Of a stretch of DNA of 64,000 nt, positions 33,001-45,000 are shown one piece after another. Made by a program: the position numbers. Every line of letters begins with the position of its first letter. Position 1 is the stretch's first letter. The stretch comes from Trypanosoma brucei (taxonomy: Eukaryota): assembly GCA_000002445.1 (NCBI GenBank), contig CP000071.1, forward strand, positions 2,176,001-2,240,000, in the 5' to 3' direction.

Positions 33001-36000
33001 GATGGGATGCCGACAAGGTTGCCTTCTGGAAGCATTGCATTGCCGTTGTTACTCTCTCTATCGTCATGTTGCTGTGTGGCTTATTCATCCCAAAGATCAA
33101 CACAGTTCTTGGGTTCGCTGGTTCCATCTCTGGTGGATTGTTGGGTTTCATTCTTCCTGCGCTATTCTTCATGTATTCTGGTGGCTTTACGTGGCAAAAG
33201 GTTGGTCCCTTTTATTACATTTCCACTTATGTTCTACTGATCACAGGTGTTATCGCAGCCGTATTTGGCACAGGTGCTACCATTTGGGCAGTTACTGTGG
33301 GATGATTAGCGTAGGTTCTGCGCACAGGAATGCATTCTACAGCAAGAGGCCAGTCGCACATGTGAATTGTTACCCGAAAACGGCAGGTTAGAAATGTGAT
33401 ACCTGTGCAATGCAGGAATAAAAGTGTGCTTAAGTGTTTAAAAAACGAAGAAAATTAATTTAACGTTTCTCTCACCGACAAATCGTATACCTTCTCTCAT
33501 TTATCCGTTCCAACACGTATTTCAAACACGGTTCCCCTCTCCAAAACGTTATTTTATTTTGTCAATTATTTCCTTTGTTCGTGTCGACACGAGTGTTTCT
33601 CCATTTAGGAAGGGAATTTCAAGTGCGAAGAGGGGACATTGTGTTATATTTACTTTCTTTCCATCCTTCGTACACTATTTTTTCTTTGTAACGCCCTCCC
33701 TATCCGTATTATTTTATTTTTTTAATGGTTGTGCGTGAAGCACAACTGCTTAACGAAAAGCGCTTGTAGGGCCGGTGGGTAATTATTTTCTACATATTTT
33801 GTTGTATGCTCCCTAATATACTACAGAAACATTAGCAGCTGCCCACAAAGGTAGTTGTTGTAAGCTTCTGTCGCATAGTATCTCTTTCGTCTCTTTCTTC
33901 TTGCTTAAGATGTACATAAAGGATTCTTGATACATGCTACCACGTTGTGCAAACCAAATAACACTAATGGAACAGGGGCACTATCAGATTTGCTAACACA
34001 GTGGAGCATGAGCATGCAAGTGATTCCAATGATGCAGATCACGCGGAAAGGCTAATTGCTCTGTTATTAACTGCATTTGGTAATTGTACTAGCACCATTA
34101 TGTGCTCGGAGTGAGCGTTCCATAGTACTATGGCTGTGGCAAGTTTCAGAGTGTGGGATGAGTTAACAACGATGCCAAGAACGCTGGCCGCTATTCCCTA
34201 AGATGCGTCTGCACTGCCACCGTAGCAAGTAACGTCTCTAGGCAGTTAACCCTTATGTGTATGTGTAACACTCCGATGCTACTTCTCCACTCGCTAAGCC
34301 GTTTTGTTCCCCTTAACATTATTACTTTCCCCTTACCTCATATTTTCTATATCCATCAAGTGTATAACCACAAAGACACTTAACCACCAAAAGAAAATGA
34401 CCAGCATCAATGCCCAACCACCCAACTCAGCCACTTATCCTCAGGATGATCATGGCAGCGCAGAAGTTGTGAACCCAAATCCTGAGGCACCCCTTTCCCA
34501 AAATGAACTAAAGAATAGTGGTGGTTGCTTTGCCAGGGTGAGTTTATTTATGGCAACTATCATCCCACCGGGAGGTATCGCCGCAAGCGCCTTCAACATT
34601 GCCGCTTCATCTGTTGGTGCCGGTATCATTGGCTTGCCTTCTGCCGCCAACAGCAGTGGGCTTGTGATGGCGATGATTTATCTTATTATCATTACGGCAA
34701 TGTCTGTGTTTACAATGCACAATCTCGCAGTGGTTGCTGATAAGACTAATGTGTACACGTACGAAGGAGTTGCCCGTGTCCTGCTGGGTCGCTGGGGAGA
34801 GTACTACGTAGCTGTTGTTCGTGCTTTCCATGGCTTTAGTGCATGTGTGGCATATGTGATTTCTGTGGGTGATATCCTGAGTGCTACCTTAAAGGGTACC
34901 AACGCTCCGGATTTCCTGAAGCAGAAGTCAGGCAACCGGCTGCTTACAATTGGCATGTGGTTATGCTTCATGCTTCCACTTGTAATACCTCGGCACATTG
35001 ACTCCCTACGTTATGTTTCAACCATCGCCGTCAGTTTCATGGTGTACCTCGTCATCGCCATTGTAGTGCACTCATGCATGAATGGGTTACCGGAAAATAT
35101 CAAGAACGTCAGTGTGGGAAAGGATGACAATGCTGAGATTATATTGTTTAACAGTGGGAACAGAGCCATCGAAGGTCTTGGGGTGATAATGTTCGCATAT
35201 GTGTGCCAAGTTGTCGCACTTGAAGTTTATGAGAACATGACAAACCGGTCCGTGGGAAGGTTCGTAATTGCATCTGCAATTGCATTGGGTATCTGCTTCA
35301 CATTGTACGTAATGACAGCCTTCTTTGGTTACATGGACTTTGGTCGTGCTGTTACTGGCTCTGTGCTTCTGATGTATGACCCAGTGAATGAACCTGCAAT
35401 TATGGTCGGTTTCGTTGGTGTGCTCGTCAAGCTATGCGTATCATACGCTATTCTCGCTATGGCTTGCCGCAATGCACTGTATGATGTCGTGGGATGGGAT
35501 GCCGACAAGGTTGCCTTCTGGAAGCATTGCATTGCCGTTGTTACTCTCTCTGTCGTCATGTTGTTGTGTGGCTTATTCATCCCAAAAATCACAACTGTGC
35601 TGGGGTTCGCTGGTTCCATCTCTGGTGGATCGCTGGGTTTCATTCTTCCTTCCTTATTGGTGATGTATTCCGGTGGCTTTACGTGGCAGAAGGTGGGTCC
35701 GTTTTATTATCTTACTACATACGCTGTATTACTTACAGGTGTTATTGCCATTGTATTTGGTACGGGAGCGACCATCTGGGGAACTGCGACTGGTTAATTG
35801 GTTTATGTGTAGCATATCGGAATGTATCGTTTTAACGGGTTTATCGAGGCATGAACAGTACTATAAGTGCTGTAAAATAATATTATCATCACTATTATAG
35901 CAATGACACTGAGCGTAAACGTTACTAATAACACGGAAGTGAATGACTAGGCGACTTCTCTTTCCGCTTCACTACTCAAAAATATAACAACACATATTTT

Positions 36001-42000: not shown

Positions 42001-45000
42001 CGTGTACAGTGTCGCAGTGGAGTGGTAACGATAGAAGTGGGGCGTCACTCGTCCTTCTCCATACATGCCCCGTGTCGAGCAAATATCATTGGGCATATGC
42101 TCTCTAAAGCCCTATTGGGCCCGTGAGATGTTTTCCTCCCCTTTTATTATGTTTTAATGCGTACGTATTATCATTATTGGATTTACTCCTCTTCCGGTAT
42201 GCTCACTCGAAAACGTGTACCTCCGGCCCAACCAGAGGGAGATAGTGTAAAGACGCAGGGATACAGGCTGTGGTGCAATTATCCATTACTGTCTCATTTA
42301 ATATTTTATTGATATAGCCAATCTTTTCAGCGGTAGCAGCCTTTTTGTGTGTGTTTTAACTCCTTTCGGAGCGACGTCAGTAATAAGGGAGAAAAGCGTC
42401 GATGTCTCTTGGGTTTTGGTTTTTTTTCATTGCTTAGTGAGTCTCCAAGTAAGTCACTCTTCGAGTTGCACACCACTCGGGTGCATATGAATGGTGGCGC
42501 TTCTCGCTCCGTTAACTTCACTGTTTTTTGTTGTTGTAACTTAATCCCACTAACACAGCACCCGACTAGGGATGTTCCGGGAAGCTATAAAACGTGCGTG
42601 CATATTGTCAGAGAAGGATCATCTGAGCATGCTGATCGTTGTTCCCCTAGGATTCGTTCTTGATCTCCTTCTTTATCTACTCTCCCTTTGCTTTCCTTCC
42701 TCCTCATATTCTTTACGCTCTCTGTTGCAGCACAAATGTTAGCGATGGGTGACCCGGACATCCCTTAGTTCCTTCTTTTCAGCAGGTTACCTGTTGGCGT
42801 TTGATGATTGTACCAATATCGGAGCTACAAGCAAAGTTGGCAGTATGCATATATGTTACAAATGCATGTACCCGTTGAACACCACTGTGGTCTGTTTCCC
42901 ATTGCGTCTCCAGGGCTGATATGTATGCATTGTGTTTGCCCTGAATCATGAACGCGGCCGCGCAACTCCTGGAAAATGGTGTCTGGTACGTTCTTTGTTT
43001 TGTTCCTTGCCGCGGCTGCATGACAGTAGACAGTTATTAACTGGATGTACAAATACACAGAGCCTTCCTTCATAAGGTTGAAAACTAAGGATAGTCATGT
43101 GTTCTAACAATCACAAGTGGATGTTTCTTCGGCACTTCACGCCGAACCGAATGCATCTACTCTCGTCTCTTGTAATGTCTCTTGGACTCGGAAGATGGCA
43201 CCCGTCAGCTCATGGGGTGTCGCGACAATGGGGAAGAGGAAGGGTTAACGCACGCACTACTGTTCGTGATGCACGAGAGCCAAATAATCTGCTGCTGACG
43301 AAGGGCGCATCGGTCTAATGGGTGTACCCCATTACCATTACTGTTTAGCGCCGTCCTATGTGTTGGCTCTGAAAGCAGTAAGTCGAATCTGCGCGAAGTA
43401 CTGAAGTTTTACTGCTGCGCTCTGGAGCCGCTGCACTACATGCGGAGGGGACGTATCCTGAATGTGCGCCTCAGGTAGGGAGGGAAGTAGACCTTTGTTG
43501 CTCTTTCCCCTCGGCGAATAGGCGAAATCAAGTGGAAGGGAGGCTGTGCGAAGATTTCCCACTAAAGCCCCGAAAGTGGGAGCGGTTTTGTGGACTTCAT
43601 TTTTCTGATGCTTGTATAAGTTCATAAATGTTTTGAGTGTGTCGGTGTTTTATCAATCCCTATGTGCGCTTGAATGGGCGTATTTGTGGTTCGATCGATC
43701 CTGTGGATCGGCAGGGCCTAACGACTTTTGGCGGTAAGTTTCTTTCTCCCCCTTGTCTTTTGCCTTGTTCCTCCCCCAGTAGCATGTATCCCTGAATAAA
43801 TCAAAGTGGCGCACACAACGTTCTTTCTTTCGTCTGCGTGCGTAGGCGTGCAGAAGTACATCTCTATCTAGTGGTGTGGGTTGACCTCCCATTTATTGTT
43901 CGTTAAGGCGTCATAGTTCTTTGTTTTCCTTTCTTTTTCTTTCCATCGTAAAAAACCACTGGTTCCCGAACTCAAATGGGAGGAGTGAAGTTCGCCGTGC
44001 TGGCACTGCTTGTATTTGCCTTGCTGTATGTCGTCACGCGCGTTTTGTTGACACGTCACCGATCAAATCCGCGAAACGACGGACGCCAACAGCACACGGA
44101 GCCTAGTTGGGACATCACCAACGGAGCCAATATTCCTGTGGTTCAGCCAATGGAAAGCACACCACCACTGTCAGAACCAGGCGTGTTGCTGGCTATTCCT
44201 TTAGCATGGCACCGGGAGATCCCTCTGTCATCGAGACCAAGTAGAAGTGACACGGGAAATAGGCCAGTAAATCCCTTAGAACGCGCACCGGACGGACCGG
44301 AGGTCGTCTACTCTCATGCAAAGTACATCCCCCGAGCCTGAAGTGCGTCTTGACAGGAGCTAAAGATAGATTCGGATGAAGGGTGCAAAAAAAAAAAACG
44401 GCGACAGCTGCAGGAGGCGTGCGGAACGCATTTAGTTGCATAAGTCAGTGTGGAGTGGGAAGTGCGGGTGAATAGGTCGTAGCAACTTGTTGCCGTATGG
44501 AACACATCGTGCTGTCCTTTTGAGGGAGACTGCGTATGCAATAAACTTTGCCCACCCTAAGCTTTGGGCCGATCTCACATTGTTGCACGGCGTGTTTCCG
44601 CTTCCTTTTAGCACAGGTATGTTATATGTGTATCCTAAAGGTGTAGGATATGTATATTTTAATAGTATCTTTGTTGCAGTTGAATGTTTATTTGTGACAT
44701 TATTATTTTGTATTATTATCATACACTTTGTCTGCGCAAATCCGCTACAGATGAAGGACTTTTTAGAGGTTGGAGAGGAAAAATAATAGTAACGATGACA
44801 ATAATGACATTCAATGGGGGGGTGGTCCACGTCACTGGGTGGGTTGACTGCCACTGCTGATGACCTTCATGATACAATACTCTTAATGCTGGTGTGTCGG
44901 TGGTCGTTGGCCGCATAGGCTTTTGCAGCACTGGCTCTGTCACTGCTAACATGGTTTCCCTCTTCTTCCTCGAACACGTATGCTCGCTGCCGCGGACTAC

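What the first reader, a model, noticed from the sequence alone, without database searches (positions are those of the whole stretch)
35298..43356. ~4-kb tandem segmental duplication carrying the divergent AAT paralogue and a truncated AAT
Everything from the 3' part of copy 7 through about 1.35 kb downstream of the divergent AAT (36523..37986) is repeated once more. The constant offset is 4040 bp, which gives a second divergent AAT (40565..42028) with only about 10 amino-acid differences. The duplication junction (39337/39338) joins non-coding downstream sequence to the middle of an AAT ORF at the microhomology 'ttgg(c/g)tatctgcttc'. This leaves a promoterless, start-less 3' AAT fragment (39338..39837) that is itself a B-C-B mosaic. 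The few differences between the two divergent copies include sites where one copy matches the A/B array sequence ('atttctgtgggtgatatcctgagtgc', giving IISVGD) and the other does not (IIAVGD). Conversion from the main array is therefore still acting on these paralogues after duplication.
Basis: seen in the sequence. Interest (0 to 1): 0.5.

Follow-up and report, generated by a model that had tools for sequence, protein, structure and literature searches.

The report
Known trypanosome transporter-gene tandem duplication
The 4-kb repeat is a real tandem duplication inside the well-studied AAT7 amino-acid-transporter gene array on Trypanosoma brucei chromosome 8. It made the already annotated gene pair Tb927.8.7680/7700 and the pseudogene Tb927.8.7690, so it is a sound observation of something essentially known.

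Summary
Window 35285-39330 and 39325-43368 are head-to-tail copies, 98.6% identical over 4.05 kb. The window is T. brucei brucei TREU927 chromosome 8, at the published AAT7 locus (Tb927.8.7600-7700). The two divergent transporters match XP_847596.1 and XP_847597.1 exactly (Tb927.8.7680 and 7700, sub-group AAT7-C). The truncated copy is the annotated pseudogene Tb927.8.7690.

The single new junction is an illegitimate join. This fits the microhomology-mediated repair known in trypanosomes.

The same junction and two units occur in an independent T. b. equiperdum assembly. Fifteen sites there separate unit 1 from unit 2 in the same way as in TREU927. The repeat is therefore not an assembly artefact and predates the split of those strains. 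The T. b. gambiense DAL972 assembly has one unit.

Differences private to unit 2 include five short patches that match other array members. This supports gene conversion after the duplication.

"Promoterless, start-less" does not apply. Trypanosome genes are transcribed polycistronically, and an in-frame ATG at 39280 gives a 185-codon ORF.

Recombination mosaics and copy-number differences in this array are already published. Interest is low.

The parts
35285..39330 (+). Duplication unit 1. It holds the last 168 codons of Tb927.8.7670, the intergenic region, Tb927.8.7680 and 1344 nt of its 3' flank.
   Evidence: Self-BLAST, 98.64% identity over 4049 columns to unit 2. Difference list.
39325..43368 (+). 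Duplication unit 2. It holds the Tb927.8.7690 remnant, the intergenic region, Tb927.8.7700 and the 3' flank.
   Evidence: Collinear with the second unit in T. b. equiperdum L003 12804-16850.
39325..39330 (+). The new junction, TTGGCT. It is the microhomology shared with the left boundary (35285-35290, TTGGGT) and the right boundary (43363-43368, TTGGCT).
   Evidence: Three-way alignment. No extended homology between the breakpoints. The junction 30-mer is present in equiperdum and absent from gambiense.
34397..35797 (+). Its codon 299 starts at 35291, immediately after the left breakpoint.
   Evidence: ORF and translation. Pfam Aa_trans, E = 3.5e-45. Gene order matches PMC8094907.
36523..37986 (+). 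Tb927.8.7680 (AAT7-C; AAT7.9 of Jackson 2007), 487 aa from MHPDG. The older annotation starts at 36346 and gives 546 aa.
   Evidence: The 546-aa product is an exact match to XP_847596.1. Pfam Aa_trans, E = 1e-48.
39280..39837 (+). Junction-spanning ORF of 185 codons: 17 codons from former non-coding DNA, then the 168-codon 3' remnant (39331-39837). This is the Tb927.8.7690 pseudogene.
   Evidence: Pfam Aa_trans profile positions 232-409 only. The ORF is also open in equiperdum. Annotated as a pseudogene. Listed in a ribosome-profiling table.
40565..42028 (+). Tb927.8.7700 (AAT7-C; AAT7.11). It differs from 7680 at 15 nt and 9 aa.
   Evidence: The 546-aa product (40388-42028) is an exact match to XP_847597.1. 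Differences.
39378..39399 (+). Conversion patch in the remnant. Four sites take the AAT7-C (7680) state.
39604..39645 (+). Conversion patch in the remnant. Three sites take the AAT7-B (7620-7640) state.
39682..39691 (+). Conversion patch in the remnant. Five sites take the Tb927.8.7600 state.
41087..41089 (+). Conversion patch in Tb927.8.7700. GCC becomes TCT (A175S), which extends identity with the A/B array to 26 nt.
   Evidence: The change is private to TREU927 unit 2. Outgroup residues.
41662..41668 (+). Conversion patch in Tb927.8.7700. All four changes go to the 7650/7670/7690 state (A368V). It lies inside a roughly 100-nt block of near identity between the sub-families.
   Evidence: Private to TREU927 unit 2, while the neighbouring site 41681 is shared with equiperdum unit 2.
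38371..38394 (+). 24-nt block substitution in a T-rich tract of the 3' flank; its partner is 42413-42436. It is a fixed difference between unit 1 and unit 2.
   Evidence: It is not an inversion and has no donor in the window.
38622..38672 (+). Long polypyrimidine tract followed by AG at 38687; its twin is 42664-42714 with AG at 42729. It is a candidate trans-splice acceptor inside the unit, upstream of the junction.
   Evidence: Pyrimidine-tract scan. That it functions as a splice acceptor is inferred only.

Best explanation
This is a real, one-step tandem duplication of 4.04 kb inside the AAT7 amino-acid-transporter array on chromosome 8 of Trypanosoma brucei. A DNA end 1344 bp downstream of the stop codon of the AAT7-C gene was joined to codon 299 of the upstream AAT7-A gene, Tb927.8.7670. 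The join used only the imperfect 6-nt microhomology TTGG(G/C)T. The likely route is microhomology-mediated end joining or a replication template switch between misaligned sister chromatids; this step is inferred. The product is the annotated set: Tb927.8.7680, the 3' remnant Tb927.8.7690, and Tb927.8.7700. Each AAT7-C copy keeps the same upstream processing region and at least 1.3 kb of the same 3' flank. Both lie in one polycistronic transcription unit, so the immediate effect is a doubled dose of one transporter isoform. The duplication predates the split of TREU927 and T. b. equiperdum. Since then the units have diverged by point changes and by short ectopic gene-conversion tracts, with minimum spans of 3 to 42 nt, copied from the A, B and C sub-families. 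These tracts are seen mainly in TREU927 unit 2. This is the ordinary mosaic evolution already described for this array.
For: Shown directly. The repeat and its differences. Organism and gene identity: exact matches to XP_847596.1 and XP_847597.1 of TREU927 on a 2,481,190-bp contig. The gene order A, B x4, A, pseudogene, A, C, pseudogene, C equals the published AAT7 map. Junction anatomy. No extended homology between breakpoints at E <= 10 beyond 9-14-nt chance hits, and 5 of 6 identity at a random pair of sites has P of about 0.0055. The same junction 30-mer and two units 4042 bp apart are in T. b. equiperdum, with no N runs. Fifteen sites have W1 = E1 and W2 = E2. In the remnant, 12 of 13 differences from 7670 equal another paralogue, in three runs each with a consistent donor, P about 6e-5. 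In 7700 two clusters, 2 of 2 and 4 of 4 sites, equal the array state, and 9 of 15 sites match overall, P about 0.016. The four other units carry the 7680 state at those clusters. Outgroup proteins have A at residue 368. From the literature: T. brucei repairs breaks by homologous recombination and MMEJ, using microhomologies of 5-20 bp that tolerate mismatches, and no NHEJ has been reported (PMC3045614). Conversion and concerted evolution in AAT7, with AAT7.9 and AAT7.11 forming a separate lineage, are published (PMC1810246).
Against: Only three assemblies could be compared. The equiperdum assembly appears to be the IVM-t1 hybrid of MiSeq and low-coverage PacBio reads polished with Pilon; that link is my inference. 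Polishing can homogenise near-identical repeats, so some 'TREU927 unit 2 private' calls may be inflated. TREU927 unit 2 and the single-copy flank downstream are both about 1% diverged from equiperdum and gambiense, whereas unit 1 is 0.25% diverged. So the reference, or the strain's history, switches haplotype near the unit border, and the age of the unit 2 changes is uncertain. The repair pathway that made the junction is inferred from the scar alone. A 6-nt imperfect microhomology is at the short end of the experimentally seen range.
Confidence: 0.88

Rival explanations
1. Assembly artefact. The second unit does not exist in the genome, for example because two alleles of a single-unit locus were stacked in tandem, or a repeat was mis-joined in the Sanger-era TREU927 assembly.
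For: T. b. gambiense DAL972 shows a single unit with no gap. Unit 2 sits on a more divergent haplotype-like background than unit 1. The authors of the gambiense genome warn that the number of assembled repeat units can be arbitrary.
Against: The identical junction and two collinear units occur in an independent assembly from another lineage made with different technology. Fifteen unit-1-versus-unit-2 differences are shared between the two strains. Allele stacking would not create the same non-homologous join twice.
Confidence: 0.03
2. The duplication arose by ordinary unequal crossing-over between homologous sequences (NAHR between AAT paralogues), not by a microhomology join.
For: The array is full of 80-99% identical repeats that do recombine. 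The left breakpoint lies inside an AAT coding sequence.
Against: The right breakpoint lies in unique non-coding DNA 1344 nt past the stop codon. A sensitive blastn of 800 nt around each breakpoint finds only 9-14-nt chance matches. Identity across the three boundaries ends abruptly at TTGG(G/C)T.
Confidence: 0.04
3. The patchy differences between units are not post-duplication gene conversion. They would instead be independent point mutations, chimeric consensus caused by misplaced paralogous reads, or an older 7670 state that the remnant kept while 7670 itself was later homogenised by 7650.
For: All five patches are private to TREU927 unit 2, which is an odd concentration. 7650 and 7670 are 97-98% identical, so homogenisation is plausible. 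Pilon polishing may have erased matching patches in equiperdum.
Against: Chance matching is excluded for the remnant (P about 6e-5) and each run has a consistent donor. Unit 2 also has private bases found in no paralogue (39648, 41737, 41918), so it is a distinct real sequence. In equiperdum unit 2, the site homologous to 41681 keeps the unit-2 state only 13 nt from the 41662-41668 patch that equiperdum lacks, which short-read polishing would not produce. Even the 'older 7670' version still needs conversion, only earlier.
Confidence: 0.1
4. The single unit in T. b. gambiense is a secondary loss or an assembly collapse by recombination between units 1 and 2, not the ancestral state. On this reading the duplication is older than the whole T. 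brucei group sampled here.
For: The gambiense unit is unit-1-like at 36236, 37200, 37204 and 37639 and unit-2-like at 38209 and 38371-38394. That is exactly the 5'-U1/3'-U2 chimera expected from a deletion or collapse.
Against: The same pattern arises if gambiense is ancestral and about four events fell in unit 2 and two in unit 1. The spatial sorting has only about a 1 in 15 chance by my own count, which is weak. There is no outgroup for the non-coding sites.
Confidence: 0.4

Closest known systems
T. brucei AAT7 tandem array, Tb927.8.7600-7700 (Jackson 2007, PMC1810246; Haindrich et al. 2021, PMC8094907)
   Same: It is this locus. There are eleven members. 7660 and 7690 are pseudogenes. The sub-groups are A (7600/7650/7670), B (7610-7640) and C (7680/7700). 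AAT7.9 and AAT7.11 are described as a separate lineage that evolves in concert. Several gene-conversion tracts have been reported, including one from copy 9 to copy 1 at CDS positions 1042-1061, the same hot spot seen here.
   Different: In the passages I read, the papers treat genes, not the 4.04-kb unit. I did not see the breakpoint, the TTGG(G/C)T microhomology, the 185-codon junction ORF or the strain-private patches described there.
Subspecies-specific segmental duplications and sequence mosaics in T. brucei tandem arrays (Jackson et al. 2010, PMC2854126)
   Same: Array 80 (amino acid transporter, Tb927.8.7600) is listed with 10 annotated copies in T. b. brucei and 5 in T. b. gambiense, unique isoforms in each, a PHI test of p < 0.001 and multiple recombination breakpoints. 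That is the same copy-number difference and mosaicism found here.
   Different: The 4-kb AAT7-C unit is not itemised in that paper's Table 1 of single-versus-tandem segments.
Microhomology-mediated end joining and one-sided MMEJ in T. brucei (Glover, Jun & Horn 2011, PMC3045614)
   Same: A short, mismatch-tolerant microhomology at a non-homologous join. The organism uses HR and MMEJ, and NHEJ has not been reported in it.
   Different: The experimental events were deletions and interchromosomal conversions after an induced break. Here the product is a natural tandem duplication, and the pathway is inferred from the scar only.
Ectopic gene conversion and concerted evolution in multigene families in general
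   Same: Short donor-consistent tracts, unchanged donors, and tracts nested in blocks of high identity.
   Different: Nothing unusual. Minimum tract spans (3-42 nt) are at the short end, and a pseudogene remnant is the main recipient.

Membership tests
Aa_trans / AAAP amino-acid transporters (Pfam PF01490) | A significant full-length match to the Aa_trans profile. | tested here: met
   7680: E = 1e-48, profile positions 4-408 of 410. 7700: E = 4.6e-48. 7670: E = 3.5e-45. The remnant matches only profile positions 232-409 (E = 4.2e-13).
T. brucei AAT7 locus, sub-group AAT7-C (Tb927.8.7680/7700) | Sequence identity with the TREU927 gene products. | tested here: met
   The window products 36346-37986 and 40388-42028 are exact matches to XP_847596.1/AAZ13530.1 and XP_847597.1/AAZ13531.1, on a 2,481,190-bp contig.
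T. brucei AAT7 locus, sub-group AAT7-C (Tb927.8.7680/7700) | The published gene order and sub-group pattern: A, B x4, A, pseudogene, A, C, pseudogene, C. | tested here: met
   ORF map and identity matrix compared with the description in PMC8094907. The assignment of gene IDs to coordinates is my inference from order and type.
Microhomology-mediated tandem duplication (MMEJ or template-switch type) | One head-to-tail junction with a few shared bases and no extended homology at the breakpoints. | tested here: met
   TTGGGT, TTGGCT and TTGGCT at the left boundary, the junction and the right boundary. No homology beyond 9-14-nt chance hits.
Microhomology-mediated tandem duplication (MMEJ or template-switch type) | Dependence on the MMEJ or replication-restart machinery. 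| not testable with these tools
   Only the sequence scar is available. The pathway is known in T. brucei.
Non-allelic homologous recombination (unequal crossover between paralogues) | Both breakpoints lie within a shared homologous segment. | tested here: not met
   The right breakpoint is in unique non-coding DNA.
Ectopic gene conversion | Clustered differences that all match a paralogue, more often than chance, with the donor unchanged. | tested here: met
   12 of 13 sites in the remnant, P about 6e-5. Clusters of 2 of 2 and 4 of 4 sites in 7700.
Ectopic gene conversion | Direction and timing fixed by outgroup copies. | tested here: inconclusive
   W1, E1, E2 and G share the unconverted state, and the outgroup proteins agree for A368. 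However, there are only three assemblies, one of them Pilon-polished, and there is a haplotype switch near the unit border.
Copy-number polymorphism of the unit among T. brucei strains | Different unit counts in different isolates, verified on reads. | tested here: inconclusive
   Two units in TREU927 and equiperdum and one in the gambiense DAL972 assembly.

The most novel reading that the evidence does not exclude
Tb927.8.7690 may not be inert. The junction created a 185-codon chimeric ORF: 17 new N-terminal codons followed by the last 168 codons of the transporter. The ORF is open in two lineages. It lies downstream of a strong polypyrimidine-AG signal inside the unit. It is listed in a ribosome-profiling study among genes whose translation is up-regulated in procyclic forms. 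It could encode a truncated half-transporter. Alternatively, because it sits between the two AAT7-C genes and carries patches from all three sub-families, it could act as a relay for sequence exchange between the otherwise separate A/B and C sub-arrays.
Probability: 0.07. Interest if true: 0.4.

Novelty: already known. Interest (0 to 1): 0.15.

Why it matters
It matters little beyond bookkeeping. It gives base-pair resolution for how one step of AAT7 array growth happened: a microhomology join that left a 3' gene remnant. A second remnant, Tb927.8.7660, has a similar scar. It also shows that the AAT7-C pair is a recent dosage duplicate and not two old isoforms. That is relevant to anyone designing knockouts, RNAi, qPCR or read mapping for Tb927.8.7670-7700, where the remnant is 97% identical to the 3' end of 7670. 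It is also a usable marker for strain typing, because the junction 30-mer is present in some assemblies and absent from another.

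Tried and rejected
1. I tested whether the 11-differences-in-24-nt cluster (38371-38394 versus 42413-42436) is a micro-inversion. It is not. Neither version occurs elsewhere in the window with up to 3 mismatches, so its origin is unexplained.
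2. I tried to fetch the TREU927 locus through the look-up of encoding contigs with P0001. No gene positions are on record. Identity with TREU927 therefore rests on the exact protein matches.
3. An exact look-up of the 185-aa junction ORF and of my 467-aa version of 7670 found neither in the collection. The 7670 query carried one extra N-terminal residue, so that miss carries no information.
4. I ran no further search on the junction ORF. The 90%-identity cluster of the AAT7-C proteins has only five members, all from three NCBI assemblies, so other T. brucei read sets are evidently not represented.
5. I searched the supplements of PMC8094907 for the Lister 427_2018 counterparts of 7670-7700 and found nothing held. 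A 2026 T. brucei pangenome preprint does not mention this locus.
6. NAHR as the origin was rejected.
7. The bacterial promoter/terminator scan, tRNA search and Rfam tools were not used, because they do not apply to a trypanosomatid polycistronic unit.
8. pN/pS between 7680 and 7700 is 0.49, from only 9 non-synonymous and 6 synonymous differences, several of them produced by conversion. That is too few to say anything about selection.

Full report
OBSERVATION. A self-BLAST of the window gives one long off-diagonal alignment in the region: 35285-39330 against 39325-43368. It has 4049 columns, 98.64% identity, 47 mismatches and 4 gap openings. The repeat finder reports the same pairs. The offset is 4040 bp. 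It becomes 4042 after a TA insertion at 40343-40344 and 4038 after a 4-nt deletion opposite 39064-39067. The two segments abut and overlap by 6 nt, so this is a head-to-tail tandem duplication with exactly two units. The only N run in the window is at 57104-57163.

IDENTITY OF THE LOCUS. All the roughly 467-487-codon ORFs in 18-42 kb match Pfam Aa_trans (PF01490), with E-values from 1e-41 to 1e-48. The two 546-aa products of the divergent genes (36346-37986 and 40388-42028) are exact matches to XP_847596.1 and XP_847597.1 of Trypanosoma brucei brucei TREU927, on a contig of 2,481,190 bp. That is my basis for calling this chromosome 8.

The gene order in the window is as follows:
- one A-type gene (18319-19722);
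- four B-type genes (starting at 20885, 23380, 26105 and 28830);
- an A-type gene (to 32955);
- a 3' remnant (about 32988-33305);
- an A-type gene (34397-35797);
- a divergent gene (36523-37986);
- a 3' remnant (39331-39837);
- a divergent gene (40565-42028).

This is the published AAT7 locus. It has 11 genes, Tb927.8.7600 to 7700, with 7660 and 7690 as pseudogenes. AAT7-A is 7600/7650/7670, AAT7-B is 7610-7640 and AAT7-C is 7680/7700 (PMC8094907). The mapping of gene IDs to coordinates is my inference from order and type. Flanking genes are a GRESAG4-type adenylate cyclase upstream and another Aa_trans gene at 54.5 kb. Almost everything is on the + strand, as expected for a polycistronic unit.

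THE JUNCTION. The three boundaries read as follows:
- left boundary, inside 7670: ...GCAATTGCA TTGGGT ATCTGCTTCACATTG...
- junction: ...CCTATGTG TTGGCT ATCTGCTTCACATTG...
- right boundary: ...CCTATGTG TTGGCT CTGAAAGCAGT...

The shared sequence is therefore only TTGG(G/C)T, at 35285-35290, 39325-39330 and 43363-43368. A sensitive blastn of 800 nt around each breakpoint finds only 9-14-nt chance matches. Identity at 5 of 6 positions for a random pair of sites has a probability of about 0.0055. So the join is illegitimate and of microhomology type, not unequal crossover between paralogues.

T. brucei repairs double-strand breaks by homologous recombination and MMEJ. Its microhomologies are typically 5-20 bp with mismatches tolerated, and NHEJ has not been reported (PMC3045614). 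The scar is compatible with that pathway or with a replication template switch. Which of these acted is inferred, not shown.

The join falls exactly at the start of codon 299 of 7670, so the remnant is codons 299-466 plus the stop codon. An ATG at 39280, in former non-coding DNA, is in frame with it. This gives a 185-codon ORF.

IS IT AN ARTEFACT, AND HOW OLD IS IT? The 90%-identity protein cluster of the AAT7-C products also holds two proteins from a T. b. equiperdum assembly and one from T. b. gambiense DAL972.

The equiperdum locus (L002/L003) has two AAT7-C genes 4042 bp apart. It is collinear with window 32987-47000 at 99.06% identity. It contains the junction 30-mer (window 39316-39345) and has no N runs. 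The gambiense locus (L001) has one unit, lacks the junction 30-mer and also has no N runs.

I aligned the five units: W1 and W2 from the window, E1 and E2 from equiperdum, and G from gambiense.
- Fifteen sites have W1 = E1 and W2 = E2. They include 37200, 37204, 37639, 38209 and the 38371-38394 block.
- So the duplication is a single event older than the split of these two strains, and it is not an assembly artefact.
- The gambiense unit is unit-1-like at the 5' informative sites and unit-2-like at the 3' ones. That fits a deletion or collapse chimera, but it fits an ancestral single copy equally well. I cannot decide between them.
- The gambiense genome paper itself warns that assembled repeat numbers can be arbitrary. 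It lists this array with 10 copies in T. b. brucei against 5 in T. b. gambiense (PMC2854126).

WHAT HAPPENED SINCE THE DUPLICATION. The commonest pattern in the five-way alignment, at 34 sites, is a state private to W2.

Part of this is background divergence. W2 against E2 is 0.99% diverged and the single-copy flank 43369-47000 is 1.02% diverged between W and E, whereas W1 against E1 is 0.25%. So the TREU927 sequence changes haplotype background near the unit border.

Many W2-private sites, however, are clustered and copy other array members.
- In the remnant, 12 of the 13 differences from 7670 equal a paralogue, against 5.7 expected (P about 6e-5). They fall in three donor-consistent runs: 39378-39399 (AAT7-C state, 4 sites), 39604-39645 (AAT7-B 7620-7640 state, 3 sites) and 39682-39691 (7600 state, 5 sites).
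- In 7700, GCC becomes TCT at 41087/41089 (A175S). This reproduces the ATTTCTGTGGGTGATATCCTGAGTGC motif of all seven A/B genes.
- Also in 7700, the four changes at 41662-41668 (A368V) all reproduce the 7650/7670/7690 state.
- W1, E1, E2 and G all carry the other state at these sites. Outgroup proteins have A at residue 368. At residue 175 some outgroups have S, so S175 in 7700 is a reversion written in the array's own codon.
- The site next to the second patch (41681, 13 nt away) is shared with E2. This argues that the absence of the patch from equiperdum is real and not a polishing artefact.
- Both 7700 patches and the first remnant patch lie in or beside a roughly 100-nt island. There the A and C sub-families are 96-100% identical, although the genes are about 62% identical overall.
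- Tb927.8.7600 carries a C-type motif in the same island. This corresponds to the 'donor 9, recipient 1, positions 1042-1061' conversion tract of Jackson 2007.

The two AAT7-C genes differ at 15 nt and 9 aa, with pN/pS of 0.49 from very few sites.

EXPRESSION CONTEXT. 'Promoterless' is not a meaningful property here. Trypanosome pol II genes are transcribed polycistronically and are resolved by trans-splicing and polyadenylation (PMC6597758, abstract listed). Both AAT7-C copies have the same upstream polypyrimidine/AG signals (36208-36227 and 40248-40267) and the same 1.3 kb of 3' flank.

A 50-nt polypyrimidine tract with AG at 38687 lies inside the unit, upstream of the junction. An RNA carrying the 7690 ORF is therefore plausible, but this is inference. 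Tb927.8.7690 appears in a ribosome-profiling table among genes whose translation is up-regulated in procyclic forms (PMC3973304). Because the remnant is 97% identical to the 3' end of 7670, cross-mapping may explain that entry. Phosphosites are reported for Tb927.8.7680 and 7700, and several of them fit the 487-aa numbering. So AAT7-C protein is made.

One fixed difference between the units is a 24-nt block substitution at 38371-38394 versus 42413-42436. It removes a pure pyrimidine tract from the 3' flank of 7700. Its origin and effect are unknown.

COMPARISON WITH WHAT IS KNOWN, AND VERDICT. Several things are already published:
- the gene pair, the pseudogene and their sub-family status;
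- concerted evolution of AAT7.9 and AAT7.11 as a separate lineage;
- conversion tracts in AAT7;
- recombination mosaics and copy-number differences between T. b. brucei and T. b. gambiense for this very array.

What I did not see in the passages I read is the base-pair anatomy: the unit limits, the TTGG(G/C)T join, the junction ORF, the presence of the same junction in T. b. equiperdum, and the list of strain-private patches. These are refinements of a known picture. The finding is a correct, well-observed description of an ordinary and already characterised feature. Novelty: already known. Interest: 0.15.

Noticed in passing
window 32956-33305 (junction at about 32988): A second 3' AAT remnant, which I take to be the Tb927.8.7660 pseudogene, sits 33 nt after the stop codon of Tb927.8.7650. 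The join reads ...GGAATGTATCGT|ATGATGTCGT... and shares only about 2 nt (GT). The remnant is A-type for about its first 100 nt and B-type after that. The array seems to have grown more than once by illegitimate joins that leave 3' gene stumps.
   Followed up: partly
window 31131-32988 versus 33973-35830: The 7650 and 7670 cassettes, each consisting of the upstream intergenic region, the CDS and 33 nt beyond it, are 97.9% identical. They are embedded in B-type intergenic sequence: 32987-33973 is about 90% identical to the spacers of the B units.
   Followed up: no
window 37520-37619, 35334-35433, 39374-39473 and about 19360: A roughly 100-nt island where AAT7-C and AAT7-A genes are 96-100% identical, although the genes are about 62% identical overall. 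Several conversion patches start or end here. Tb927.8.7600 carries a C-type motif (TGTGCGTCATATGCATTGCT) in it, matching a tract published by Jackson in 2007.
   Followed up: partly
window 38371-38394 versus 42413-42436: A 24-nt block substitution, with 11 differences, in a T-rich tract of the AAT7-C 3' flank. It is fixed between unit 1 and unit 2 in both TREU927 and equiperdum, and gambiense has the unit 2 form. It is not an inversion and has no donor in the window. It removes a polypyrimidine tract with its AG from the flank of 7700. Its origin is unexplained.
   Followed up: partly
window about 39000-47000 versus L003 and L001: TREU927 is about 1% diverged from both equiperdum and gambiense from about 39 kb onward, including the single-copy flank. 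Inside unit 1 the divergence is only 0.1-0.4%. In the flank, equiperdum and gambiense differ from each other by 0.28%. This suggests a switch of haplotype background, either historical recombination or a mixed-haplotype reference, near the unit border.
   Followed up: partly
window 36300-36302 versus 40340-40344: An A/G change and a TA insertion lie in the polypyrimidine tract upstream of the AAT7-C genes. The insertion puts a stop codon upstream in unit 2, so the longest ORF starts at 40376 in unit 2 and at 36289 in unit 1. The annotated starts, MFKLL... and MHPDG..., are not affected.
   Followed up: no
window 57104-57163: A run of 60 N, presumably an assembly gap, downstream of the Aa_trans gene at 54503-55906.
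   Followed up: no
window 1998-15903 and 52058-58984: Flanking genes are a CorA-like transporter, a dihydrouridine synthase, a RING-variant protein, a GRESAG4-type receptor adenylate cyclase (12034-15903), a TLC-domain protein, a further Aa_trans gene (54503-55906) and a C2H2 zinc-finger ORF on the minus strand (58244-58984). The minus-strand ORF may mark a strand switch.
   Followed up: no
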